A program made the translations under genes and the position numbers. A stretch of 64,000 nt of DNA from a virus, in the IMG/VR virus record IMGVR_UViG_3300045988_050969; one strand, given 5' to 3'. Positions 10,734-60,128 of the stretch are shown here, piece after piece. The notes beneath the pieces are model-generated. The model was not told the origin of the DNA, ran no database searches, and worked only from the letters and a program-made list of their open reading frames with translations. Position 1 is the stretch's first letter. The number at the start of each line of letters is the position of its first letter.

Positions 10734-11375
10734 TTATTGTTTAGGTAACTCGATTACACGAGTATCAGTTACCTTGATTATTGGGTTACTGTTAACTATC
10801 TGATATTTTTTGGTACGTATACGTTTCCAATCAAAGTGCCAGAACCTAACCCAGCCATTCTTATACTTATTACGATATTCTTTCTTTTCTTCTACAAACA
10901 GAATCTGTTGATTCTTAATATCTAATGTGGCTTTAAGGATTGAGTCCTTCCTACTAACTATGATAGTTGTTAATGGATTAATTTTAAGTTCTTCGTCAAA
11001 ATCTATTAACTTGTGTTTTATAATAGTTCTGACTGAATCTTTAATCTCAGTATTGATTACATTTATATTAGTTAGGTTCTTGTCTTTGATTTTGAGCTTT
11101 TTCTAAGCATCCTTGGTTTCTTTTAATAAACTATCATTACTAGTATTTAGTTCTTCTATAGTAAGCTATAACACTCTGTTTAACTATTCTTTCTAGGATG
11201 CTAATTGCTCGTAAGCTCTAACATTGTTAGTTATTCTGTCAATCTCTTTATTCTTCTTTTGTAGCTAATGGTTCTAAACAAAAACAGTCGCAATAAGTAA
11301 ACTAACTAAACCTACTGCGACTGCTCTGAAATTCCTTGTAAACCAATTAACTAACTAATTCAGTATTGGAATCAT
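10734..11375 (-). CDS. spanin-like protein: N-terminal TM anchor plus long coiled coil (213 aa), TAG-recoded
   Basis: ATG 11375 lies inside the 3' end of the holin-like gene. TAA 10734..10736, 642 nt. TM segment AVAVGLVSLLIATVFV is followed by heptad-like K/E/Q/L-rich sequence. Confidence 0.4.
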
Positions 11376-11856
11376 CTGGTAATTCTTTATCTAATGATAT
11401 ATCTAAATATTTCTCTCCTTTTGCTTTTATAACCTTTTTGAGGATTTTCCATATTTTCCATTTAGGATATAAGTCGCTAAATGATTCTAGTAACGACCAA
11501 AACTCAACTAAGGCTATCATTCCTGCTACTATTTCTACAGCGTGCAAGTTAATAGAGGTTACTACCAGCTAATCTATTATTGATGCACTAGTTATTGCTA
11601 CTGCTGCATCTCTAGTCTTCCATATAGTTTTCCATGCTTTATGTGATTCAATCTTAGGATGCCCATATTTTTTAGAGACTTTATAACCATAGATAGCATC
11701 AAGTAGTATCAATATACCGACAGCAGTGATAGGAACCCATACAGGTGCGAATATAGAAAGTAGCCCAGTTATAACAGAAGCTACGCATTTATTCGCACTA
11801 CTGAACATGTTCTTAAATATTGACATAGTATGTTCTCCTAATTGTTGGTAATTCAT
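11347..11856 (-). CDS. holin-like membrane protein (169 aa), one in-frame TAG
   Basis: Fragments 11569..11856 and 11347..11547 are in phase (offset 222 nt) across a TAG. Several hydrophobic helices. The LLDAIYGYKVSKK segment resembles the phage holin-4 family. Confidence 0.5.
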
Positions 11857-11871
11857 AGATAGTAGCTGATA

Positions 11872-11925
11872 ATAAAAATCAAATAAGCCCTGACAGATTA
11901 AAAGGGGAGTAAAATCTGAGAGGGC
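11872..11925 (-). terminator. terminator-like hairpin after the RT gene
   Basis: GCCCT..CAGATT / AATCTG..AGGGC imperfect hairpin, followed on the minus strand by TTATTTGATTTTTATT. Confidence 0.5.
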
Positions 11926-11970
11926 TCGAAATTCCGTTTGAGATTATAATTATATAACGATAAGGTTTAT

Positions 11971-12993
11971 TTAAGGTTTCCGTTTTGAAAATCTTCTTGC
12001 ATAAACTAATAGCTCTTTATAGCGTAATATTTTCTTTAGTAAGTTGATGCCATTACAATGTTTAAGCCAACCTATATGACTACACATTTCTTGTTTGTAA
12101 TCTTCTACTGTAATGTTTTTCTTTCTGCCTAATCTAGCAGCTTTCCTACACATGCTACGCTTAATATTTTTTCTTACTAAAGTATAGTCATGCCTTATTA
12201 CATAACCTACAAAAGATATACCTCTGTCTTCTACTTTAAATATCTAATAGTTATCTTTGAAAGTTAATTTTAAAGTATCTAAATACTATTTCATTTCTTC
12301 AAACAGTTCTCGTAAATACTCTTTATCCTTATGTAGTATTACTATATCATCTGCATATCTGAAGTAATATTTAACCTATTTATCTTCTTTAAGCCAGTGG
12401 TCAAAGTAAGTAAGATACAGATTAGCAAAGAACTAAGATAAGTAATTACCAATAGGTACACCTTCTGCTGAATCTATTATCTCATCTAATAGCTATAATA
12501 ACTTCTAATCCTTTATCTTCTTTCTTATTATGCTCTTTAATACTTCATGGTCTATACTAGGATAGAACTTTCTGATATCTAACTTAAGACAATAAGTAGT
12601 ATTATCTACATCTTTTAAAGCTTCTTTAACATTATGTAATGCTTCGTGAATACCTCTGTGTTTAATGCAACTATAAGTATCTTTAATAAAGATAGATACC
12701 CATATAGGTTCCATTATATTCATTACAGCATGATGTACTATTCTATCTGGATAATAAGGTAATCTAAATATTAATCTTTCTTTAGGTTCTCTAATTATAA
12801 ATGTATTATATTCAGAAGTTTTATACGTACCGTTAATTAAATTCTGCTATAGTTTTTTAAGTAATTCTTCTTTATTCTAGTCAAACTCTTTGATATCTTT
12901 TCTACTAGATTTATTTCTTCTAGCTTTCTTATCTGCTAAATATAAATTGTCTAAGCTAACAATCTTATCGAATAAATTATTATATCTCTTCAT
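11971..12993 (-). CDS. DGR reverse transcriptase (340 aa) with 8 in-frame TAG codons
   Basis: ATG 12993, TAA 11971..11973, 1023 nt = 341 codons. Fragments 12505..12723 and 11971..12153 are in phase. Motifs: KLDIRKFYPSIDH, IGNYLS[TAG] (the I/LGxxxSQ DGR hallmark, TAG at 12433..12435) and YADD at 12346..12357. Confidence 0.9.
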
Positions 12994-13132
12994 AAATAAT
13001 ATTTTCTGAAATACCTTCACGCATCTTCACTTTCGTTACCAATGCGTTCAAGAAGCATGTCATATTTTACCAAGAGGTAAGGTTCAGCCCTTGATTTTTT
13101 GTCAGTTTATAATTTTTTTTACGTATTTCAGT

Positions 13133-13226
13133 GTCCTGACATTAGCATTGGAATTGTCTAACTCATTGTTAGAATTCAAATTGAACAAACCTGCATTAGA
13201 CTCATTGTCTGAGTTACTGCTGATTT
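13133..13226 (-). repeat. DGR template repeat (TR)
   Basis: 94 nt, 70/94 identical to 13371..13464. All 24 mismatches are plus-strand T, which is A on the coding strand, in this copy. Read in the VR frame it is rich in AAT/AAC codons. It lies 30 nt after the target stop and 139 nt before the RT start. Confidence 0.88.
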
Positions 13227-13255
13227 ACTCACGACTGCAACCTTTTATTGGTTAA

Positions 13256-15817
13256 TTAAAACCAGTTTTCTTCAGATTCTATAGAATCCAATTGTTCATA
13301 ATCCTCATCATTTAACTCTAATGTAGCTGGAGCAGCTGGCAATGCCGGTTCACCATAGAAGGTAATTCGAGTCCCGACACCAGCATCGGAATGGCCCAAC
13401 CCAGAGTTAGAATCCAAAGAGAACAAACCCGCAGTAGACCCATTGCCCGAGCAACCGCCGATCAGAAGCGTCCTAGGTGTAGCTGTAGCACTAGTCCAGT
13501 GATAATCACAATAATAAGTTGTAGCACTAGCTCCATTTCCTACTACAGTTGGGAATAGATCTGCCTAATTATTATTAACGAGTTTTTTTACATATTGACC
13601 AGTAATTGTACTTTCTTTAAAGTCTTGTAATTCATAACCTGCTGCAATTAATTGCTCTGCAGTAGGATTAGTTCCTCCTTCAAATGTACCAAACTTAGTA
13701 TAATCTTTGCAGATGTATACACTATTATCAGTACCAGCAACTACTACATCAATTACATTCTTCCACACATGACCAAATGGATTCTCAATACCACGGTATC
13801 TAGGAACATTAACTACCTTAGTACCAGTAGACGTACCCTCTGCATTAGTATTAGTATGTGTATATTCGATTATACCAGTACCATTACCTAATGAATTAGT
13901 AGTACCGCAAGGTACAAATGAATAAGTAGTAGCTCCATTTACAGTTACAGTTCCTGAAGTTACTCCATCACCCAAACCACCTTGATGATAACCTTCTGCA
14001 GTTAAATTAGCATTAAATGCTTTCTGACTATTCAATGTAGCATATTCTACTACGAATAACCAAGTAAGGTCTCTGTGAGCATCATAAGTATAAATATTCC
14101 AGTTGTTAGTTCTATTGTTATTTCTAGCCATAGTCTGGAATTCTGTTCTAGTTTTGCTTATTATAGGAGCAGTATTACGAACTTGAGTTCTTAATGAATT
14201 ATTATGACTTGAACTATCTAGATTTACACTTCCCTCGTATGCACCGATATATTTCTTCTCTACTTTAGTGTAACCAGGAAGATTGTATTCACTCATACGG
14301 ATTTCAACTGTATTATCTGGAGTAGCTATAAGTAATCTATAATGTTCTGGAATTTCTACAAAAGCTTCTACACCAACCCCACTACTATCTTGAGATGAGG
14401 TAGTACCGTCTTCCCACTTAGTCCAGTCGTTTGCTTTTAAGTATTTCTTAGTATTATCCGTATTGCTGATAGTACACCCTCTCATCTTACTCTGGATAGG
14501 AAGTGTTTTATGCATTTCCATATTACCAGTACGTACACCATCAGGACTAGAGCTATTAGCTAAGTCAAACTTAACTCCATACCACAGTTCATTTTCATTT
14601 CTACTAAGCTTACCAATCTCTTCATCAAGAGTAACAGCTGCACTTATAGCACTAGGACTATCAGCTAAGTAATTAGTACTTGATAAGTCAGGCATTTCAT
14701 TAGCTTCAGTTAAACCTACCTTATCATTTACTTTAAGTATAGTACTTCTAAGCTCTGTAATATCTTGATTTAAAGCTGTCTCTAAACTGTCAATATTGCC
14801 TTGAAGTTCTGTATCCTTAGCTTTGAGTTCTTTCACTGCATTCTCTCTTGCAACCTTTTCATCATTAATTGCATCAGGAAGAGTTTCATTAATGGCTAAC
14901 TTTTCAGCACCAGTCATTAAACCAGCAACAGTATTAGTAGCAGGAGTAATAGTAATATTAGATAAAGTAGACTGTACATATTTACCGCCGCTCTTTTCTA
15001 CTCCAGTAAGACTGATAGTAATGTTATTAACATCTGTCTGATCTAACTGGAATGTACTTAATAAATTATCTGGCATAGAGTTAACTACATTCTCCATAGC
15101 TTTACCCTTACCGCCATCATAAGCAGTACCAGTAATATCGCCAATGATAATGGCATTAGAATCAATGTGTACCCATTGTGAACCAGACCATCTAAATTGA
15201 TAGCTTACTTCACCAGGAGTTACATTAACATATATTTTATCTCTTTCACCTACTATAGGAGTTTCGTGTTCAGCATCTGCATATAACTGTATATTCTAAA
15301 GTACTCCAGTAGGAGATACAGTATAAGTAGCATATGCATCCATCACATCATCAACATATGAAGGCAATTGACTAGCAGGTACTTTACCATTACCATCAAG
15401 TTCAGCAAGACCATTAGGTTGACCTTTTAATGCTTTGAAGTCCTGTAAGTCTTCATTCACATCATCAATCTTAGTATCCAGTCTATCTACTTGAGCTTTT
15501 ACAGCAGCATCACCTTTATTAATAGCATCTACTATACTAGTACCTTTAAAGTAGTTATTACTACTATTATCAGGTAAAGATATAATATCACTATTCTTAT
15601 CATAGTTTAAACCAACAGATTGTACAATCTCTTTAATATGAGTCCATTGGTCTACATTAGCATCTCTGTTTAACGGTATCCACTTCTTAAGATCAGGACT
15701 ATATGACTTAATAACATTACCAGTACTATCTGTTGCTAAGTCAATCCAGTAAGAAACCTCTTTAGGATTTGGAGCATACTTAGATGCTATGAAATTAGGA
15801 TTTTCTTGTTTAACCAT
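13256..15817 (-). CDS. DGR target: tail-fibre protein (853 aa) with a C-type-lectin-like variable tip, TAG-recoded
   Basis: ATG 15817, TAA 13256..13258, 2562 nt = 854 codons. Joins fragments 15296..15817 and 13565..15097 with the VR-containing tail across TAGs at 15296 and 13565. C-terminal sequence: YYCDYHW...LLIGGCSGNGSTAGLFSLDSNSGLGHSDAGVGTRITF. Confidence 0.85.
13371..13464 (-). repeat. DGR variable repeat (VR) inside the target gene
   Basis: Partner of the TR. Differs only where the TR has A on the coding strand (24 of the 34 TR adenines are substituted). Confidence 0.88.
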
Positions 15818-15915
15818 ATTTGCAAATATTTAATAATTAAATAATCTCCTGTTCTGGAGTATCGTATTCTTTCTATCTCGTATATTCATCATTGAAATAT
15901 ACAATATTGTTTTCA

Positions 15916-17010
15916 TTATGTTATTGGATTTAATGCTACAACTTGACCAGCTTCAGTCTTATCAAAGTAATTAACTACAGCAAATTCCTCATCTGCTGCC
16001 TAACCGTCTCTACTGCTTACATAACTCCTAATAAACTGCTGACCTCTCTTTTCACTATTACCTGCTACGTATCCGTATCGAAATGCAGTATCTATAGTAG
16101 GATGATATATGGTTCCGTCTTCATTCATAGCGATTACTTTAATCTATCCTTCTTCAGCCATAGTATTAGTATTAAGACACCTAACAGAACCTGTTATTAT
16201 ATTCCCATCTATGTTTGTCTAATTATTCCATGTCTTATACTACTTACCGTTGAATGTAACATAACCATTAACCGAAGTACTTAAAGTGCCTTTAAACGTA
16301 AAATCTCTTTGTATAGTTAGATTGGGCATACCTTCCACACTATCGTCTACAGGATTAATTTTATAATATCTATTAGTATTTGTTCCATCCACGTGTATGA
16401 CCGTTTCTCCAACCCATATTTTATTAGGCATACCTTCTTCATACACCCAACCATCTTTATCAGCGAATACAAATGATTGACCTGTTACTCCCATATCACT
16501 ACCCTTCATTTGATACGCTTTTACTATAACTCCTCCTTTATAAGCAGTACATTCAACAGTCACAATACCGTCATTTTTATTTCCAAACCAGTTTCCTCTA
16601 AGCTATACAATTAACTATTCCGGCATAGTTAAACTAGGATCATTAGTATATACATCTTGTATGGATTTAATGTCTACCATTACACACTCTGCTCCAGATT
16701 GAGTGTTATCGCCTCCCCAGTATAAAAACGGTTGAGTTCTATTTTCAGACGAACCCCAATTCCATCCTACTATTTCACTAGGGATACTAGGAGCGTTAGT
16801 GATGTTAGTACCGGTATCAAAATCTCTACCGTTAGAATCAGTCCATATGAATCTCAACTATATACTATTGAAATCATAGAAGTAAGCTACATCATCCCTA
16901 GTAGGCCATATGTGACTCTAACCATCAAATACATCAGATATATTAGTATTGCCTACGGTTCTCTTTTGTAGGGGAACTGCTCGTCCCCCTGCTATACCTA
17001 ACTCTAACAT
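15916..17010 (-). CDS. hypothetical tail-associated protein (364 aa), TAG-recoded
   Basis: ATG 17010 (TAATG overlap), TAA 15916..15918, 1095 nt. Fragments 16615.. and 16240.. are in phase. Confidence 0.6.
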
Positions 17011-17635: not shown

Positions 17636-18541
17636 TTACTCTTTAAAGAATCCACTAGGAGCACTTACTTTATTAAATACTACACTATCAGTAGTAGCTA
17701 ATGATAATTGAGCTCTAGTAACTACATGAGGATTATCTCTTCTAGCTGCATGGGTATCAATAGCATTTTGTGCATTAGTAATCAATTGTTTAAGCTCATT
17801 AATTTGGGATTGCAGATTATTATCTGCATTAGTTCTATTTTCAATCTCTTGATTAATTAACTCAGTAAGATCGGTAACTTTACTATCTACGTAAGTCTTA
17901 AGTTCATTCTTAGCCTTAGTAATCTCACTATTTATATAGCTTCTTAAATCACCAATCTATTGGTCTATTTTACTATCTAACTCTTGTATATTCTGAGTTA
18001 ATTCAGTAATCTTTTGTTGAATAGAACTTAAATCCCCACCTATTACTTCAGTTATATCTTGACGTATCTCTTCAATATTAGAATTGATATTAGTAATATC
18101 TTGATTTATATCATCAATGTTATTATTGATATCTGTAATATCCTACTTGATATTATTAACATCACCTTTGATGTCATTAATCTCATTTCTAATATTACTA
18201 ATCTAAGTAGTTAACTCTTCTACTTTCTGATTAATATACTACCACAGTTTATTAACTTCCTCTTTCAGTTCATCTTTAAATTCAGCTAATTCATTTCTGA
18301 TTTCAGTTATAGCTTCATTAATAAACTGTTCTATCTAATCAAGAGCTCTATTAATATAATCAATGATAGCATCTACTTGCTTATCATTCAGATCTAGCAT
18401 CTCCCATGTATTAGTATCATTACGATAATACCTAATACAACCACCATAGTAATTAGATGTAACGTCAATCCAATAATCTACTTCTAGAGGATTAGGCTAC
18501 GTATCTGATGCTCTAAATCTAACTATCTCTCTCTGTAACAT
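17636..18541 (-). CDS. coiled-coil tail-fibre protein (301 aa), TAG-recoded
   Basis: ATG 18541, TAA 17636..17638, 906 nt. N-terminus ...PNPLEVDYWIDV... is paralogous to the N-terminus of the DGR target. Long N/I/D/E heptad region. Confidence 0.6.
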
Positions 18542-43178: not shown

Positions 43179-43407
43179 CTATTGAGATAATAATTTATAA
43201 CTTAAAATTCTTTAATTATGAAAAATATATGTTGGGGAGATTTCCAGTGACTGCAACCTAGTTTCTTAAGCTAGGGATTTATACGCCTTATGTTTAGTAC
43301 TCCCCACCTGGGCTAACGTTTACCCCAGACTACCTGTTCGTGATAACTACCTATCCAACAAGTTTCCTTCTGCTATTGTAATTTCAAAGGACTAGTGTTT
43401 TAATTTG

Positions 43408-43479
43408 TCCTCCTACCATAGAATCGAACTCGGACTTACGGGGCTAGAATCCGTCGTGCTGCCACTACACCATAGGAGA
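43408..43479 (-). tRNA. suppressor tRNA, anticodon CUA (decodes UAG)
   Basis: Minus strand: TCTCCTA-TG-GTGT-AGTGGCA-GCAC-G-ACGGA-[TT CTA GC]-CCCGT-AAGT(C)-..G-TTCGATT-C..-TAGGAGG-A. Anticodon loop is U33-CUA-G37, and the D-loop GG and T-loop TTCGA are present. The T-stem is weak and the acceptor/T register is ambiguous. Confidence 0.75.
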
Positions 43480-51201: not shown

Positions 51202-51898
51202 GATATACAGATTTATTCGCAAAGTAATTATTCTATGAAATGCAAATTATCCTCATATGTTGTGAAACATAATTTAACCACGTTAAAGTATAATAATATA
51301 AGTTAGGTATGCCCTTATAAAGACTTAGGTAGCGCTAAGGACTATATTATTATACTTCTCTTCTTAATGCAGCCGAGTGCCGGTGACAAGCCCGACAGAA
51401 TGCAGAGTCAAGAAAAATAATTTATTATCATTATTACGCATTCTATGCACAAGAAATGTAGTAGTTGAGAAGATGATAGATTATAATCCACGTGGTAGAT
51501 GCAGTTGTAGGTTCCAACTGGTGCACATCTTTTAGAGACAGTAACCAAGCTCGAAGTAAGCAGAGCGAAGATAGAAGCTATACCTTGATAGGCTTAATGA
51601 GGTGCTTAACAGTCTGACACTAACTGAACAATAAGTGTCCTCAGTTCCGGGTGAGTAAAGTGAATGTGGAATATATCGGACTACAGCCTCGAAGAAAGGT
51701 TCCACCAAGTATGTCAAAACTTGAGTAGAAAGTTGTACTATAACCAAAAGTATAACAGACTTAATAGAGTAAGAGAATAGAAATGTGTATATCTACGTAG
51801 TTCATAGCATAGCTTATAATCGTATAATGCAACATCGATTATATTAATGCGCTTACTCTATTATTTTTATTGCATTAACTAACAAATAAATCAATTAT

Positions 51899-52149: not shown

Positions 52150-52578
52150 ATGAAGAAAATAACTTGTATTCAGAATTATGTAATAGATAAGCTTATTGAA
52201 GACGAGAAATTATCTACAAATAGTCTATTAGATGCAATATCCAAAGTATGTTCAAAGGAACAATTTGATAATATACTATCTATTCTTATAGAAACACCTA
52301 TTCCTTGTACAAATATGCCTGAATTAGAAAGTAAAACAAGCTTAGTAGGAATAAGCATGTTTATACCTGAAGAAGTTAGTGGTTCTACTAAAATAGAGAT
52401 AATAAAAATAATAAAAGACCAATTTGGTCTTCGTCTTGGACAAGCTAAAGAATATGTAGATAGTTGCATAGGGAAATACGGTATGGTTCCTAAGGTTGTT
52501 GCACAAGAAGAAGTAGATATTATTACCGAAAAATTAAAACCTTACCATGTAAGTGTATCTATAGTAGGATTTTATTAA
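52150..52578 (+). CDS. protein with a ribosomal L7/L12 C-terminal-domain-like region (142 aa)
   Basis: KIEIIKIIKDQFGLRLGQAKEYVDS...VVAQEEVDIITEKLKPYHVSVSI parallels the L7/L12 CTD sequence [25 protein letters not shown]...[22 protein letters not shown]. Confidence 0.45.
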   Translation: MKKITCIQNYVIDKLIEDEKLSTNSLLDAISKVCSKEQFDNILSILIETPIPCTNMPELESKTSLVGISMFIPEEVSGSTKIEIIKIIKDQFGLRLGQAKEYVDSCIGKYGMVPKVVAQEEVDIITEKLKPYHVSVSIVGFY

Positions 52579-52609
52579 AAGTTAATGCAGTAAATATTAC
52601 TGCATCTAT

Positions 52610-52712
52610 ACTGTGAGAATCAGTATCAACTTTGTGGGGCTTATATTTAGACAATGTATGATAATAGTTGCAAATGTTATTATATAATCTAATATTAGTG
52701 CAGATGAAATCA
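52610..52712 (+). ncRNA. structured RNA-like element, copy A1
   Basis: Hairpin ACTG-tgagaat-CAGT (52610..52624), TGTGGGGCTTATAT (52633..52646) and ATTAGTGCAGATGAAATCA (52694..52712). Confidence 0.4.
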
Positions 52713-52791
52713 AAGATAGTTCGTATTTGCGGTATTGCGGGATACGAACAAGTCAAGTCATTATAAGACTGGGTAGCGTAATACAAAAAAT

Positions 52792-52812: not shown

Positions 52813-52819
52813 TATCTTT

Positions 52820-52934
52820 AAGGTGAGAATCCTTGACAATCCTGTGGGGCTTATATCTATCAAAAGAACTTACAGCAGCTTTTATATTAGCTTAGCTGGA
52901 CTTTATGATAGTATTAGTGCAGACGTTAAAATCA
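52820..52934 (+). ncRNA. structured RNA-like element, copy A2
   Basis: Hairpin AAGG-tgagaat-CCTT (52820..52834), TGTGGGGCTTATAT (52843..52856) and ATTAGTGCAGACGTTAAAATCA (52913..52934). Confidence 0.4.
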
Positions 52935-53263
52935 GGAACAACTACATCATTACTAACAATATTATCGGTCACAAGTCTAACGACAATATGATGTAGCCAA
53001 GTTTGTTCGTCCTTAGATTTACAGTATCAGCCATTTGTTTATTTAATCATTGTTCGTTCTTAATTATACAGATTGATTAATTAAGCATAACAGTAAGCGT
53101 ACTGTTGTCAGTATATTTATATGTGAATATAGATATACTGATTGCACTCAAAAGCTGGCCTTCACGTGGCGAGTGTGTTAAGTAATAGGTCTAAAAAATC
53201 TTCCAGTTTTACCTATGAAAACTAACAGCTACCTTTTTATTAACTTTAATAACTATCAAAAAT

Positions 53264-53449
53264 ATGTATAAAAAACTATCAAATTTAAATGTTGGAGATA
53301 TATTCCAATATGGAGACACTATATATGAAATAGTAGAAAAAGGAGTATGGCATGCAAAATGCAAGTATATTAATGAAACTCCTAAATCGGAATATTCACC
53401 TGAATATTTATTTATAAATTTTAGTCTTTATACTCGAGTTAAAGTTTAA
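53264..53449 (+). CDS. small hypothetical protein (61 aa)
   Basis: Intact ORF. Confidence 0.5.
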   Translation: MYKKLSNLNVGDIFQYGDTIYEIVEKGVWHAKCKYINETPKSEYSPEYLFINFSLYTRVKV

Positions 53450-53460
53450 TAATTTTAAAT

Positions 53461-53544
53461 GCCCAGATGTTGAAATAGGTAGACAATCCACACTTAAACT
53501 GTGGTGACCATTTGGTCGTGCGGGTTCGACTCCCGCTCTGGGTA
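53461..53544 (+). tRNA. tRNA-Leu (anticodon UAA), class II
   Basis: Acceptor GCCCAGA/TCTGGGT, D-loop AATAGGTA, anticodon arm CCACA-[CT TAA AC]-TGTGG, long variable arm GACC-ATTT-GGTC, T-arm GCGGG-TTCGACT-CCCGC. Closely parallels E. coli tRNA-Leu(UAA). Confidence 0.9.
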
Positions 53545-53576
53545 CAATTAGTAATTAACATTAAAATCAATTTAAT

Positions 53577-53876
53577 ATGAAAGAAGAAAAACTTACAAGA
53601 TTAAAAATTCTAAGAGTAATGTCATATGATCTCTTACACTTCCTTATGAGGGAAAAAATACTTAGTGTATTTCTAACTGAATGCTTAAACAATAGCTATT
53701 CCTGGGTTCTTAAAAACAGAATAGAACAAGGAATATTTCAAAATCGAAGTATTACATTACATGATATGTATGAATTTGAAAATTATTTCACATTTAGTGT
53801 GTCTACTACTTTTACTGAAAGTGCTTGGTGGAGATATGCATTTAAATATAGGGAGGAGTATTCATGGAAAGTCTAA
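53577..53876 (+). CDS. hypothetical early protein (99 aa)
   Basis: Intact ORF. Confidence 0.55.
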   Translation: MKEEKLTRLKILRVMSYDLLHFLMREKILSVFLTECLNNSYSWVLKNRIEQGIFQNRSITLHDMYEFENYFTFSVSTTFTESAWWRYAFKYREEYSWKV

Positions 53877-54175
53877 ATAGTATTACTAAATATATAGTAG
53901 GTGCTATAATATTTGTATTTATACTTATGTGGATAGCTGACAAGCTATTTATTGCGCATGTTAATACTGCTACAGAGTTTTTAGATAATTATAAGAATTA
54001 TATAATAATAAGAAAAGATAAAGGTATAAATGATTATATACTTACTATTAAAAATCCTTATACTCAAGATATTAGGTATCGAATTACTAATGTAACTGTT
54101 CCTTCTGGATTATGGTATAATTATTCTATAGGAGATACTATTGGTAAGAAAAAGCAGATATATTTTAATCAATAA
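53864..54175 (+). CDS. membrane-anchored early protein (103 aa)
   Basis: Intact ORF. N-terminal TM segment. GGGAGGAG lies upstream of the ATG. Confidence 0.55.
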   Translation: MESLNSITKYIVGAIIFVFILMWIADKLFIAHVNTATEFLDNYKNYIIIRKDKGINDYILTIKNPYTQDIRYRITNVTVPSGLWYNYSIGDTIGKKKQIYFNQ

Positions 54176-54187
54176 AAGTAAGTAGTT

Positions 54188-54556
54188 ATGAAAAGAGAAG
54201 AAATTAAATCTTACAAAGATGCCTGCAAAGTAATAGGTAGAAAACCTAGAACTTATAAAGATAAGCATCTAAATCTGTATGAACAGCTTAGTACAATTAC
54301 AGCTGCTCTGAACTTTATTAGTAATAATAACAAACCTTGGAAACCTAAGTTTGATTATTATTATATCTATTCTTGGTTATACAGAAAAGATGGATATAAT
54401 AAATCTGCGGGTTTGTTCTCTTTGGCTTCTCGCAATGGGTTGGACGATTCCCTTGCTCATGTCGGGACTTCTCTGAAGATAAAAGAAAGAGAGGATGGAA
54501 ATTACATAATAGAAAACTTTAAAGAACTACTCCAAGATTGGTTTTGGGGAAATTAA
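54188..54556 (+). CDS. hypothetical early protein (122 aa)
   Basis: Intact ORF. Confidence 0.55.
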   Translation: MKREEIKSYKDACKVIGRKPRTYKDKHLNLYEQLSTITAALNFISNNNKPWKPKFDYYYIYSWLYRKDGYNKSAGLFSLASRNGLDDSLAHVGTSLKIKEREDGNYIIENFKELLQDWFWGN

Positions 54557-54582
54557 TTACTAATTTTAAAAACATTATCAAA

Positions 54583-55041
54583 ATGGAAAATGAAATGATG
54601 GCGAGACCCGAACCGCCAAGAAGAACTGTTTGGGTAATAGTAGCAATCATTGCCTTAATAGGCATGTTTGGAGCAATGATTTATGCAGAGCGTGAAAACA
54701 TTGCTAATTTCTTAAATGGTGTGAACCAAGAAGAAGTACAAGAAGATCCTCAAGTTATCATTGAGGAACCTGTAACAACAATACAGGATATTCTCGATAT
54801 GAGAGAGCAAATGAGAGAAGATAGAAGAGTTGACAGTGTATTTTTAGCTATGCCAAAGGTAGTATTAATTGATATTTTGATGCAGCATGGTACATCATTG
54901 TCTATAAAAGACATGATTTACATATATGAATCAAACACATCAACGTACAACACAGTATTATCTGGAGCAAGAGCTCAAAAATATCTTGATGATTCTATAA
55001 AAACTAGTCCCTTACCAACGGTTGTAAACGACTCTATTTGA
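54583..55041 (+). CDS. membrane-anchored early protein (152 aa)
   Basis: First ATG at 54583, within track ORF 54538..55041. TM segment VWVIVAIIALIGMFGAMIY. Confidence 0.55.
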   Translation: MENEMMARPEPPRRTVWVIVAIIALIGMFGAMIYAERENIANFLNGVNQEEVQEDPQVIIEEPVTTIQDILDMREQMREDRRVDSVFLAMPKVVLIDILMQHGTSLSIKDMIYIYESNTSTYNTVLSGARAQKYLDDSIKTSPLPTVVNDSI

Positions 55042-55088
55042 AATTAAAACTAAACCTTCTTTCTGTTTTAAATGAATATTAGAGTCTA

Positions 55089-55263
55089 GTATACTCAGTC
55101 TGTGAAGATAGAGTATACGTCCTCAGAAAATGACAAGCATGTGGGGCGTAAGTATATACAGTAGGTTATCGTTTATCCTCATTTATACAGGTTAATTGCG
55201 CAACTGTAAAAAACGGGATTGATAGAATAGATGGTATATATGATCGTGCGGACGTTAAAATCA
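55089..55263 (+). ncRNA. structured RNA-like element, copy B
   Basis: Hairpin GTATACTC-agtctgtgaagata-GAGTATAC (55089..55118), TGTGGGGC (55140..55147), stem GTATATAC/GTATATAT and GTGCGGACGTTAAAATCA (55246..55263). Confidence 0.4.
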
Positions 55264-55457
55264 TGTACTCCAATAAGATTTAGTTTGACAGCTACTTCTG
55301 CTTATGAGTTAAAACTATAGTGAGAGTCATAGTAAGTAACGATTGTGGTCGTTTATCTTTGTCTTATAACAAATGCTATAAACCCAGTAGTTGGCACTAA
55401 CTTAATTAAATCCTGAGTGCCCAGGCGTCATTATTAATCAATTTAAACGTTTAGATT

Positions 55458-56665: not shown

Positions 56666-56885
56666 CCCTAAACAAGTTAGTATGGTGCAGTCAACCCAGA
56701 ACTATTATTATCAACCAGACCCCTAATGGAAGCTTAGTAACAACTAAGCTTACTAAGCAAGAGTACAATGGACTATACAACGGTCAACCAGTATCTAATA
56801 TTGGTTTAAGATGAAGGAAAAGGGTTGCCTATGAATAAGAGATACGAATAAGTAGGATAGTAGTTCTTTTAAAGAAATTAAAGAA

Positions 56886-56945
56886 ATTGACTGTTAGGTC
56901 TATTGAATCGTCGTTTGGACGAGGGTTCGACTCCCTCATGCTCCA
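56886..56945 (+). tRNA. tRNA-like element: class-II variable arm, T-arm and 3' acceptor strand; no convincing 5' half
   Basis: GTC-gtttg-GAC, then GAGGG-TTCGACT-CCCTC, then ATGCTCC-A. No complementary GGAGCAT lies upstream. The only local stem is AATTGAC-tgttag-GTCTATT, which has a 6-nt loop. Confidence 0.3.
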
Positions 56946-56960
56946 CTAATAATAAACTGT

Positions 56961-57065
56961 ATGAAAAATAAAGAAAGAACTTGGCTTGAAGCTATTTTCT
57001 ATGCTATGTTTGCTGTAGGTATCACAGGTACTATAATACTTATAATTGGGGCATTATGGTTTTGA
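56961..57065 (+). CDS. mini-ORF encoding a 34-aa TM peptide
   Basis: MKNKERTWLEAIFYAMFAVGITGTIILIIGALWF. Confidence 0.3.
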   Translation: MKNKERTWLEAIFYAMFAVGITGTIILIIGALWF

Positions 57066-57190
57066 CAGCGATATAAGAAGAAATAGAATAGGTCAATAAG
57101 CAGATAACTGGCAATACAAGTTATGTTATGAACTATAGCCGTATTGCGGCGTAAGTTCAAAACGGCTAAGCTAATGTCGTAGAAAGCTGG

Positions 57191-57270
57191 AGTAAGGATA
57201 GTACTCAGATGGTAGAGCGGTGAGATAATATCAAAAGCTGGTATCGGAGGTTCGAGTCCTCCCCTTACTA
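57191..57270 (+). tRNA. tRNA-like gene with a good acceptor, D-arm and T-arm but an unfoldable anticodon arm
   Basis: AGTAAGG...CCTTACT-A acceptor (7 bp), ACTC-AGATGGTA-GAGC D-arm, GGAGG-TTCGAGT-CCTCC T-arm. Total 80 nt. The central GTGAGATAATATCAAAA does not pair. There are 5 nt rather than 2 between the acceptor and D stems. Confidence 0.4.
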
Positions 57271-59579: not shown

Positions 59580-60128
59580 ATGAAAGAAGAAGAAAAGCTT
59601 CTTGTAGAGCAAGCTAGAGACGGTTCCGAGAGAGCTTTTAGTACACTCTATAATACTTACAAAAAGACTGTTTGGTATACTGCTTTTAAAGTGGTAAACA
59701 ACGCAGATGCAGCAGATGATATAACATCCCAAGTATTTACTAAAGTATATTTAAAGCTTAAATCTTATACACATCACTTATCATTCGAGATGTGGTTAAA
59801 AACTATTACAGTTAATACTGCAATAGATTATATAAGAAGGAACAAAAAAGAGCAATTAAATAACTATATTGATGAAGAAGACTCTACAATTCAATTAAGT
59901 GGATTAGAACATAGTCCAGAAGATAATCTTATATTTCAACAGAATATAAATATTGTTATGGATTGTATTCCTCGTCTTAAGAAAAAATATAGAGATTTAA
60001 TTTATGCTCGGTTGGATGGAAAATCCTACCAACAAATTTCAGAAGAGCTTGCTATTCCAGAAGCGACTGTAAAGACGTGTTTGAATAAAGCAAGACAAAG
60101 ACTGAGAGAGATGTTTAACAAATATTAA
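59580..60128 (+). CDS. ECF-type (sigma-70 family) RNA polymerase sigma factor
   Basis: Region-2-like FSTLYNTYKKTVWYTAFKVVNNADAADDITSQVFTKVY and region-4 HTH SYQQISEELAIPEATVKTCLNKARQRLRE. 182 aa. Confidence 0.85.
   Translation: MKEEEKLLVEQARDGSERAFSTLYNTYKKTVWYTAFKVVNNADAADDITSQVFTKVYLKLKSYTHHLSFEMWLKTITVNTAIDYIRRNKKEQLNNYIDEEDSTIQLSGLEHSPEDNLIFQQNINIVMDCIPRLKKKYRDLIYARLDGKSYQQISEELAIPEATVKTCLNKARQRLREMFNKY

What the first reader, a model, noticed from the sequence alone, without database searches (positions are those of the whole stretch)
13133..13464. Textbook DGR template/variable repeat pair targeting a tail-fibre tip
TR 13133..13226 and VR 13371..13464 are 94 nt each and 70/94 identical. 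All 24 differences occur where the TR has T on the plus strand, which is A on the coding strand. So 24 of the 34 TR adenines are substituted and no other base differs.

Read in the VR frame, the TR gives I S S N S D N E S N A G L F N L N S N N E L D N S N A N V. That is rich in AAY codons, as expected for DGR templates. The VR encodes LLIGGCSGNGSTAGLFSLDSNSGLGHSDAGVGT near the C-terminus of an 853-aa fibre, a pattern like a C-type-lectin/FGE-type DGR scaffold. DGRs on gut-phage fibres are known. This one is complete and apparently active, since the VR has diverged heavily from the TR.
Basis: seen in the sequence. Interest (0 to 1): 0.8.

Follow-up and report, generated by a model that had tools for sequence, protein, structure and literature searches.

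The report
Two-target DGR in a crAss-like phage

Summary
TR 13133-13226 and VR 13371-13464 are 94 nt with 24 mismatches, all at template adenines (P about 9e-15).

Both genes are intact only if TAG is read as glutamine. The fibre has 2 in-frame TAGs and the reverse transcriptase (RT) has 8, and a tRNA(CUA) lies at 43407-43479.

The RT is of the DGR type. It has the GxxxSQ motif, and its best solved relative is a 328-aa RT at E 7e-45. The fibre C-terminus models confidently, and its best structural matches are the DGR variable proteins TaqVP and Mtd.

The window is 94.8% identical, over the 6 kb compared, to RefSeq crAssphage cr53_1 (Suoliviridae). That record already annotates the RT and an "Mtd-like" tail protein, so the core finding is a rediscovery.

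Across about 30 related contigs the TR is 99.7% conserved. The VR is different in almost every genome, almost only at TR-adenine sites, so the element is active.

New here:
- A second VR (54406-54468, + strand) lies in a conserved 122-aa TAG-free ORF in the replication-side gene block. It is equally hypervariable at adenine sites only.
- No Avd accessory protein was found.
- Template adenines followed by G are written as G about 95% of the time.

The parts
13256..15817 (-). Target gene 1: an 853-aa tail fibre or tail protein, with in-frame TAG codons at 15296-15298 and 13565-13567. The C-terminal receptor-binding module ends in a C-type-lectin-like variable domain followed by a 37-aa acidic tail.
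   Evidence: The ORF is continuous only with TAG as sense. It matches PHROG 5302 'tail protein' at 6e-82 (on the proxy P0001). cr53_1 annotates it as 'tail protein; similar to sulfatase, major tropism determinant'. The AF2 model has pLDDT 87.5 and its best PDB fold matches are TaqVP 5vf4 and Mtd.
13371..13464 (-). VR1, the variable repeat, encoding residues 785-816 of the fibre.
   Evidence: It has 24 of 94 mismatches to the TR, all at TR adenines. 32 of 33 copies from related genomes are distinct, and they vary almost only at A sites. It is the least conserved stretch of the locus, at 82% mean pairwise identity.
13133..13226 (-). TR, the template repeat. It is non-coding and holds 34 adenines, 10 AAY codons in the VR frame, and no codon that adenine changes can turn into a stop.
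   Evidence: It is identical in cr53_1 and invariant in 26 of 30 related copies. It is the most conserved stretch of the locus, at 99.7%.
12994..13132 (-). A 139-nt spacer between the TR and the RT start codon. It is presumed to be part of the TR-containing RNA that the RT copies.
   Evidence: The position follows. TR plus spacer folds more stably than shuffles (z = -3.35). It is 93.5% conserved. Its function is inferred by analogy with the BPP-1 DGR RNA and is not shown here.
11971..12993 (-). DGR reverse transcriptase, 340 aa, with 8 in-frame TAG codons. The Q of the diagnostic GxxxSQ motif (GNYLSQ, residue 187) is itself a TAG codon at 12433-12435. The YADD catalytic motif is present.
   Evidence: Pfam RVT_1 at 2e-19. 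PHROG 1423 'Reverse transcriptase' at 1e-123. The best PDB chain is 8ub7_A (a 328-aa RT) at E 6.8e-45, against 1e-17 or weaker for retron and group II intron RTs, and the TAG aligns to its SQ glutamine.
54406..54468 (+). VR2, a second variable repeat of 63 nt. It matches TR positions 32-94 and encodes residues 73-94 of a 122-aa protein. It ends in the same GTCGGGAC as VR1.
   Evidence: It has 14 mismatches to the TR, all at TR adenines (P = 1e-9). 26 of 28 copies are distinct. In a retrieval that did not depend on the VR pattern, entropy was 1.32 bits at TR-A columns, against 0.10 at non-A VR2 columns and 0.15 in the rest of the gene.
54188..54556 (+). Target gene 2: a 122-aa protein of unknown function with no TAG codons and no Pfam domain. 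It lies in the + strand block, which is co-oriented with the replication genes.
   Evidence: The ORF is intact in 52 of 56 related loci, and a 53rd runs off a contig end. Variation outside VR2 is biased to third codon positions, 161:141:376. There are 670 clusters at 90% identity; the 120 listed are 121-125 aa long. It matches PHROG 11581 (unknown function) at 8e-7 and has no Pfam hit. The AF2 model is poor, pLDDT 50.
43407..43479 (-). Suppressor tRNA with anticodon CUA, needed to translate the RT and the fibre.
   Evidence: ARAGORN and Rfam tRNA at 37.7 bits. All in-frame stops of the RT and the fibre are TAG. TAG aligns with CAA/CAG Gln codons in orthologous RTs and with the motif Q.

Best explanation
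This is a diversity-generating retroelement (DGR) of a crAss-like phage in the Suoliviridae, close to Blohavirus americanus cr53_1.

Proposed mechanism:
1. The non-coding TR (13133-13226, - strand) is transcribed together with the 139-nt spacer.
2. The RT encoded just downstream (11971-12993) copies it into cDNA, misincorporating opposite template adenines.
3. The cDNA replaces the homologous variable repeats. VR1 lies at the C-terminal C-type-lectin-like tip of the 853-aa tail fibre. VR2 is a shorter repeat that shares only the 3' 63 nt of the TR. It lies in a 122-aa ORF 41 kb away on the other strand.

Because the TR is rich in AAY codons, only the ligand-contacting residues change, and no stop codon can arise.

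The RT and the fibre carry in-frame TAG codons. They can be made only once the phage's tRNA(CUA) reads TAG as Gln, presumably late in infection. The VR2 gene has no TAG and sits in the replication-side block.

Shown here:
- The anatomy of the element.
- The DGR-type RT.
- The lectin-like fold of the fibre tip.
- A-site-restricted hypervariability of both VRs across genomes, with a nearly invariant TR.

Inferred from the BPP-1 paradigm:
- The RNA intermediate, the priming and the cDNA integration.
- The timing of expression.
- The role of the fibre in receptor binding.
For: - Repeat anatomy and A-specificity.
- TAG recoding: every in-frame stop in the RT (8) and the fibre (2) is TAG. Long TAG-containing ORFs tile the - strand at 1-43000, while + strand genes have none. 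A tRNA(CUA) is present.
- TAG reads as Gln: TAG aligns with Gln codons in orthologues and with the GxxxSQ glutamine.
- RT identity: RVT_1 at 2e-19; PHROG RT at 1e-123; 8ub7_A at E 6.8e-45, against 1e-17 or weaker for other RT classes.
- Fibre fold: AF2 pLDDT 87.5 and pTM 0.87. The eight best Foldseek PDB hits are all DGR variable proteins: TaqVP at E 7e-8 with probability 1.0, and Mtd at E 0.01-0.12.
- Activity at VR1: 33 copies, 32 distinct. Mean pairwise differences are 15.6 at 31 A sites and 0.375 at 60 non-A sites. The TR is identical in 26 of 30 copies.
- Identity by region: TR 99.7%, VR1 82%, flanks 88-96%.
- VR2.
- Synteny: the same holin-RT-TR-tail protein cassette, with its own A-specific TR/VR pair, occurs in cr60_1 and cr6_1.
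Against: - No Avd (or other known accessory) gene was found among 34 small ORFs of the window or 7 of the rest of the cr53_1 genome.
- There is no long GC-rich IMH. The stretch downstream of VR1 does not fold better than shuffles (z = -0.7).
- There are no reads from the source sample, so activity within this particular population is not shown. The variation measured is between assemblies.
TM-scores to TaqVP are modest (0.38-0.49), since the query is multi-domain.
- The fold and function of the VR2 protein are undetermined.
Confidence: 0.93

Rival explanations
1. Fossil DGR. The element was active in the ancestry of this lineage but is dead in this genome, and the TR/VR difference is only a historical record.
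For: No reads are available for this sample. No Avd was found. Decayed DGR cassettes are reported in other crAss-like groups (PMC7290462, PMC11054128).
Against: The RT ORF is intact once TAG is read as Gln, and it keeps GxxxSQ and YADD. The TR is identical to that of cr53_1, and both VRs have zero non-A mismatches. A dead element would accumulate non-A differences. Almost every related genome carries a different VR, so turnover is faster than genome divergence of about 5%.
Confidence: 0.05
2. VR2 is a bystander. It would be a relic fragment of a fibre tip that still carries the homing signal and so is overwritten. On this reading its diversification has no function of its own, and the 122-aa product may be dispensable.
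For: Homology to the fibre family is limited to the 31-column VR segment (hhalign probability 67%). Upstream of TR position 30 there is a 3-nt indel and non-A mismatches, as expected for a decayed longer VR. The Afonbuvirus (cr6-type) DGR shows no second target. No function or fold could be assigned.
Against: The ORF is intact in 52 of 56 loci, with a 53rd running off a contig end, and shows third-position-biased variation outside VR2. The non-VR residues are nearly invariant across 45 sampled members of the 670 clusters. The frame places the AAY codons in register, and the structural Gly and Leu codons of the VR are maintained.
Confidence: 0.25
3. This is not a retroelement. The repeat would be an assembly duplication, or the variability would come from recombination or gene conversion among fibre alleles.
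Against: The same pair at the same 238-nt spacing occurs in more than 20 independent assemblies. The differences are confined to one template base, at P = 9e-15, which recombination does not produce. A DGR-type RT lies adjacent.
Confidence: 0.01

Closest known systems
RefSeq NC_055889.1, crAssphage cr53_1 (Crassvirales; Suoliviridae; Loutivirinae; Blohavirus americanus)
   Same: It is 94.8% identical over window 11000-17000, with identical gene order. The TR is identical. The record annotates 'Reverse transcriptase' and 'tail protein; similar to sulfatase, major tropism determinant'.
   Different: The record lists no TR or VR features in the stretches inspected. It calls the RT an 'intron reverse transcriptase', and the ORFs under VR2 are 'hypothetical protein'. 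Its VR1 differs from the window's at 17 positions, all at TR-A sites.
DGR of crAssphage LMMB and other genus I Intestiviridae (Morozova et al. 2020, PMC7290462)
   Same: It is a crAss-like phage with the architecture target gene-VR-TR-RT. There is no avd, and the target is a tail fibre with a C-type-lectin VR.
   Different: It belongs to a different family (alpha versus delta group). That paper describes a single target and a standard-code genome with no tRNAs. Here the RT and fibre need TAG suppression, and there is a second, remote VR.
Bordetella phage BPP-1 DGR (Mtd, Avd, TR, bRT), the paradigm
   Same: Mutagenesis is adenine-specific. The VR is at the C-terminus of a receptor-binding protein with a C-type-lectin fold. 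The TR lies just upstream of the RT. The RT aligns over 309 residues with the 328-aa PDB chain 8ub7_A, which from memory I take to be bRT. Mtd is among the best fold matches.
   Different: No Avd is present. The terminal element shared by the VRs is only about 8 nt (GTCGGGAC against GTCAGGAC in the TR), not a 14-bp GC run plus 21 bp. There is no significant downstream hairpin. AAT rather than AAC is the dominant TR codon.
[quoted passage not shown] 2023, PMC10743442; zeta crAss-like Lera, PMC12386605)
   Same: One DGR serves more than one variable gene.
   Different: In the tentaclin phages both targets carry a recognisable C-type-lectin domain, and the authors interpret them as receptor-binding proteins or adhesins. 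Here the second target is a 122-aa protein with no recognisable domain. It lies in the TAG-free, replication-side block, 41 kb from the cassette on the opposite strand, and it uses only the 3' two-thirds of the single TR.
Thermus aquaticus variable protein TaqVP (PDB 5vf4)
   Same: It is the best structural match of the modelled fibre C-terminus (Foldseek E 7e-8, probability 1.0). It is a DGR variable protein with a C-type-lectin fold.
   Different: Sequence identity is only 13-15% and TM-scores are 0.38-0.49. TaqVP is a bacterial protein, not a phage fibre.

Membership tests
Diversity-generating retroelement (DGR) | An RT of the DGR clade: an RVT_1 domain with the [I/L/V]GxxxSQ motif and YxDD, closer to DGR RTs than to group II intron or retron RTs. 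| tested here: met
   RVT_1 at 2e-19. PIGNYLSQ and YADD are present. 8ub7_A scores E 6.8e-45, against 3.8e-17 for retron and 2e-16 for group II intron RTs. PHROG 1423 at 1e-123.
Diversity-generating retroelement (DGR) | A template/variable repeat pair whose differences are confined to template adenines. | tested here: met
   VR1 has 24 of 24 mismatches at A (P = 9e-15). VR2 has 14 of 14 at A (P = 1e-9).
Diversity-generating retroelement (DGR) | The VR lies at the 3' end of a protein-coding target. The TR is rich in AAY codons in the VR frame and cannot generate stops. | tested here: met
   VR1 is residues 785-816 of 853. VR2 is residues 73-94 of 122. The TR has 10 AAY codons, 7 of them within VR2, and no codon can reach a stop.
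Diversity-generating retroelement (DGR) | The variable residues are displayed on a C-type-lectin (or Ig) fold. | tested here: met
   For the fibre, the AF2 model has pLDDT 87.5. The top 8 Foldseek PDB hits are TaqVP and Mtd, and TvpA also appears. For the VR2 protein the test is inconclusive: the model has pLDDT 50 and there is no profile or PDB match.
Diversity-generating retroelement (DGR) | IMH at the 3' end of the VR, a non-identical IMH* at the 3' end of the TR, and a hairpin downstream of the VR. | tested here: inconclusive
   Both VRs end in GTCGGGAC+T and the TR ends in GTCAGGAC+A. That G is fixed in all 58 distinct VR copies of this lineage, 32 VR1 and 26 VR2. The equivalent site is fixed in all 48 distinct cr6- and cr60-type VRs. 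This fits a short IMH/IMH* distinction, but it is also an AG site. No significant hairpin was found downstream of VR1 (z = -0.7).
Diversity-generating retroelement (DGR) | An accessory variability determinant (Avd) or another accessory gene in the cassette. This feature is common but not universal. | tested here: not met
   No Avd-like Pfam hit was found in the cassette neighbours, in 34 small ORFs of the window, or in 7 small ORFs of the remaining 37 kb of cr53_1. Avd-less DGRs are documented in crAss-like phages (PMC7290462), so this does not exclude membership.
Diversity-generating retroelement (DGR) | Ongoing mutagenic homing: the VR is hypervariable at A sites in the population while the TR is conserved. 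| tested here: met
   Tested between assemblies, not within one sample.
Diversity-generating retroelement (DGR) | An RNA intermediate and adenine-mutagenised cDNA. | not testable with these tools
   This needs cDNA sequencing or reconstitution.
Crassvirales, family Suoliviridae (delta crAss-like phages) | Genome-level similarity to a classified member. | tested here: met
   Identity to NC_055889.1 (Blohavirus americanus) is 94.8% over 6 kb at 100% coverage. A second region at 53400-55300 is 93.1% identical, with 68% of the query covered.
Phage stop-codon recoding, TAG to Gln (genetic code 15) | In-frame TAG only, concentrated in late genes; a phage-encoded tRNA(CUA); TAG aligned with Gln in homologues. 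| tested here: met
   TAG aligns with CAA/CAG at RT columns 49 and 251, and with the motif Gln at column 187.

The most novel reading that the evidence does not exclude
The DGR of this phage lineage diversifies a second product besides its receptor-binding fibre. That product is a small (122-aa), TAG-free protein with no recognisable domain, encoded in the replication-side (presumably early) block, so it is probably not a virion component.

It would then be a phage-made hypervariable binder that acts inside or on the infected cell, for example against a variable host defence or takeover target. It would not be a second adhesin.

A linked point concerns the RT of this clade. It writes template AG as GG about 95% of the time, so TR 'Ser' codons (AGY) are effectively hard-wired Gly. 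This is a far more deterministic context rule than the published average for BPP-1.
Probability: 0.3. Interest if true: 0.65.

Novelty: new member of a known kind. Interest (0 to 1): 0.4.

Why it matters
The core finding matters little. DGRs on gut-phage tail fibres, including those of crAss-like phages, are established, and the near-identical RefSeq genome already flags the two genes.

Three points are useful.

1. TAG recoding cuts the RT into fragments under the standard code. The longest table-11 ORFs in the RT region are 72 and 60 aa. It also cuts the VR off many database copies of the fibre. Standard DGR finders and protein catalogues will therefore under-count DGRs in recoded phages.

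2. The remote second target is a concrete, testable case of a phage DGR diversifying something that is probably not a virion protein. It occurs in one of the most abundant human-gut phage groups.

3. About 100 natural VR alleles per lineage give a free in vivo read-out of the RT's context-dependent error spectrum, including the AG-to-GG rule. This is relevant to designing synthetic DGR templates.

Tried and rejected
I used the 96%-identical proxy P0001 instead.
- A sequence search of the fibre C-terminus against the PDB gave only chance histone hits. Only the fold search was informative.
- VR2 protein:
  - There was no Pfam hit, and the PDB profile search gave nothing.
  - hhalign to the fibre family matched only the 31-column VR segment.
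  - The AF2 model was too poor to search (pLDDT 50).
  - Its fold is therefore left open. A minimal lectin-like fold is only my inference, from the order of predicted helices and the YYYIYSW / VR / SLKIKE strands.
- Hairpin downstream of VR1: not better than shuffles.
- Avd: not found in the window or in the rest of cr53_1. One ORF could not be scanned because of an in-frame stop.
- Second target in the Afonbuvirus (cr6-type) DGR: the shortened pattern found essentially only TR and VR1, so the dual-target layout is lineage-specific.
- My first full-length pattern missed VR2. It was found only by reading the translated small ORFs.
- A first ungapped comparison of the spacer and RT gave spuriously low identities because of poly-A length variants. 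I redid it with an alignment.
- The main text of Yutin et al. 2021 (PMC7886860), cited elsewhere for DGRs in Suoliviridae, does not contain the words DGR or reverse transcriptase. The published basis for 'DGRs in Suoliviridae' is thus the statements in PMC11054128 and PMC12386605 plus the RefSeq annotation.
- I considered protein-level selection as the cause of the near-fixed A-to-G changes. I rejected it because they also occur at four-fold degenerate third positions, while a four-fold site in a TAT context shows all four bases.
Full report
**Observation.** The repeat is exactly as described. The repeat finder reports one direct-repeat family at 13133-13224 and 13371-13462, 238 nt apart. Over 13133-13226 against 13371-13464 there are 24 mismatches in 94 nt. 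Every one falls where the TR has T on the + strand, which is A on the coding (-) strand. The changes are 16 T>C, 4 T>G and 4 T>A, and the TR has 34 such positions. The chance that all 24 mismatches fall on the 34 A sites is 9e-15. A pattern with N at each TR adenine matches only these two places in the window, with 0 expected.

**Coding context.** Under the standard code the region is a litter of short ORFs. All in-frame stops in the frame that carries the VR, and in the RT frame, are TAG: two in the 853-aa target (13256-15817) and eight in the 340-aa RT (11971-12993).
- With TAG as sense, the - strand from 1 to about 43000 is tiled by long ORFs carrying up to 19 TAGs each. The + strand genes beyond 50000 have none.
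- A tRNA with anticodon CUA lies at 43407-43479.
- TAG most likely reads as Gln. The Q of the RT's diagnostic GxxxSQ motif is a TAG in this genome and in three relatives, and it aligns with Q in the best solved homologue. Two further TAGs align with CAA/CAG in both orthologues.

**The RT.** It matches Pfam RVT_1 at 2e-19 and PHROG 1423 at 1e-123. Against the PDB, the best match is 8ub7_A, a 328-residue 'Reverse transcriptase', at E 6.8e-45 over residues 2-310. Retron and group II intron RTs score 1e-17 or weaker. From memory I take 8ub7_A to be the BPP-1 DGR enzyme. PIGNYLSQ and YADD are present.

**The target.** The C-terminal roughly 410 residues belong to a large family of C-terminal modules on proteins of very different lengths. 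There are 1469 representatives at E below 1e-3, and the family matches PHROG 5302 'tail protein'.
- The model has pLDDT 87.5 and pTM 0.87.
- Its eight best Foldseek matches in the PDB are all DGR variable proteins: TaqVP 5vf4 (E 7e-8, probability 1.0) and five Mtd variants. TvpA appears further down. TM-scores are modest (0.38-0.49) because the query is multi-domain.

**What genome this is.** Window 11000-17000 is 94.8% identical at full coverage to RefSeq NC_055889.1. This is crAssphage cr53_1 (Crassvirales, Suoliviridae, Blohavirus americanus), from human faeces. That record already annotates a 'Reverse transcriptase' and a 'tail protein; similar to sulfatase, major tropism determinant'.
- DGRs of architecture target-VR-TR-RT without avd are described for alpha-group crAss-like phages (PMC7290462).
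- Later papers state that DGR cassettes occur in Suoliviridae, and that amber suppression in RT genes hampers their detection (PMC11054128, PMC12386605).
- The core finding is therefore a rediscovery.

**Activity.** The TR is identical in the window and cr53_1, yet their VRs differ at 17 positions, all at TR-A sites.
- A scan of IMG/VR with the A-degenerate pattern, followed by a relaxed re-scan of the loci, gave 33 VR1 copies (32 distinct) and 30 TR copies (26 identical, the rest one change each).
- VR1 copies differ pairwise at 15.6 of 31 A sites, but at 0.375 of 60 non-A sites.
- In an alignment of 23 loci the TR is the most conserved stretch (99.7%) and VR1 the least (82%). The flanks are at 88-96%.

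**A second target.** Reading the small ORFs, I noticed '...SAGLFSLASRNGLDDSLAHVGT...' in a 122-aa + strand ORF (54188-54556).
- Its nucleotides 54406-54468 match TR positions 32-94 with 14 mismatches, all at TR adenines (P = 1e-9). It is in the same reading frame as VR1 and ends in the same GTCGGGAC.
- Upstream of TR position 30 the similarity breaks, with a 3-nt indel and non-A mismatches.
- A pattern scan found 28 copies, 26 of them distinct.
- To avoid circularity, I retrieved 57 loci through the protein's non-VR peptides. Entropy is 1.32 bits at the 21 TR-A columns, 0.10 at the 43 non-A VR2 columns and 0.15 in the rest of the gene.
- The ORF is intact in 52 of 56 loci, and a 53rd runs off a contig end. 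Variation outside VR2 is biased to third codon positions (161:141:376). The protein forms 670 clusters at 90% identity; the 120 listed are 121-125 aa long. It is a real gene and a real, active target.
- VR1 and VR2 of this genome differ at 11 positions, so they were written by separate events.
- The gene has no TAG and is co-oriented with the replication module of cr53_1. I infer early or middle expression and a non-virion product, but I have not shown this.
- Its fold is open.
- The related Afonbuvirus DGR shows no such second target.

**Accessory parts.** No Avd-like protein was detected in the window or in the rest of cr53_1.
- The only sequence that the two VRs share and the TR lacks is the terminal GTCGGGAC+T, against GTCAGGAC+A in the TR.
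- That G is fixed in all 58 distinct VR copies of this lineage. The equivalent site is fixed in all 48 distinct cr6- and cr60-type VRs. This fits a very short IMH/IMH* distinction.
- No significant hairpin follows VR1. TR plus spacer RNA folds better than shuffles (z = -3.35).

**Error spectrum.** In 32 VR1 alleles, TR adenines followed by G are G in about 93% of cells, against about 26% at other A sites.
- This includes two four-fold degenerate third positions (TCA and GCA): 30 of 32 are G, and C or T never appear.
- The independent cr6-type DGR (44 distinct VRs) shows the same. A before G becomes G 95% of the time. GCA in a CAG context gives G 42, A 2. A four-fold site in a TAT context (CTA) gives A 26, C 8, G 9, T 1.
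- Protein-level selection cannot explain this. Template AG is written as GG almost deterministically, so the TR's AGC/AGT 'Ser' codons are Gly in every VR.
- A dominant effect of the 3' neighbour on bRT errors was recently published for BPP-1 (PMC12875486). A rule this extreme for AG is not stated in that paper's text.

**Verdict.** The kind of element is known, and this phage species is already in RefSeq with the two genes flagged.

The added value lies in four things: the TAG-gated RT, the remote second target in a small non-structural-looking gene, the absence of Avd, and the AG-to-GG rule.

Noticed in passing
window 54188-54556 (+); VR2 at 54406-54468: A second DGR variable repeat lies in a 122-aa TAG-free ORF, 41 kb from the cassette on the opposite strand. 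It matches TR positions 32-94 with 14 of 14 mismatches at adenines. It is hypervariable at A sites only across about 55 related genomes.
   Followed up: yes
window 1-43000 (- strand ORFs); tRNA at 43407-43479 (-): TAG is a sense codon, most likely Gln, in the - strand (structural or late) genes, with up to 19 TAGs per ORF. It is absent from the + strand genes beyond 50000. A tRNA(CUA) is encoded. The Gln of the RT's GxxxSQ motif is itself a TAG (12433-12435).
   Followed up: yes
TR 13133-13226 and VRs; L128 5470-5557 and 5684-5771 (cr6_1) with related loci L138-L187: Template adenines followed by G are written as G in about 93-95% of natural VR alleles, including at four-fold degenerate sites. 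Adenines before T, A or C show the usual mixed spectrum. TR codons AGY therefore always appear as Gly in VRs. This looks like a property of the RT rather than selection.
   Followed up: partly
window 51210-51360, 51417-51640, 52604-52715, 52814-52937, 55119-55266, 56687-56867 (+): A cluster of Rfam-threshold structured RNAs lies in the + strand block around the VR2 gene. It comprises RAGATH-6, RAGATH-7, three Hatchet ribozymes and RAGATH-9.
   Followed up: no
window 56899-57154 (+) (ARAGORN: 56853-57245): A permuted tmRNA is called by both Rfam (50.1 bits, threshold 47) and ARAGORN (tag peptide GNTSYVMNYSRIAA*). It is borderline in score, but it is unusual cargo for a phage that reassigns a stop codon.
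   Followed up: no
proteins P0078 and P0090 and others (homologues of window 13256-15817): Many database copies of the fibre are truncated at the TAG just upstream of the VR (77% query coverage, ending ...LVNNN), so their variable tip is missing. One such cluster, from a 101-kb contig, is labelled 'Catenibacterium sp.' by NCBI/UniRef. It is probably a mis-binned phage genome.
   Followed up: partly
L128 5684-5771 (cr6_1 VR): The cr6_1 VR contains an in-frame TAG made by A-to-T at a TR AAG codon. This is harmless only because TAG is sense in these phages, so recoding widens the codons a DGR template can safely use.
   Followed up: no
window 59580-60128 (+) and 52150-52578 (+): The phage encodes a sigma-70-like factor (Sigma70_r2 at 1e-13, r4_2 at 7e-12). 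It also encodes a small protein with a ribosomal L7/L12 C-terminal domain (6e-6, just above the Pfam cut-off).
   Followed up: no
window 15817-15700 (-) and 18541-18430 (-): The DGR-targeted fibre and the coiled-coil protein at 17636-18541 share an N-terminal motif (…NP.EV.YWID…). This suggests a common attachment domain for several fibres. It was seen only by eye.
   Followed up: no
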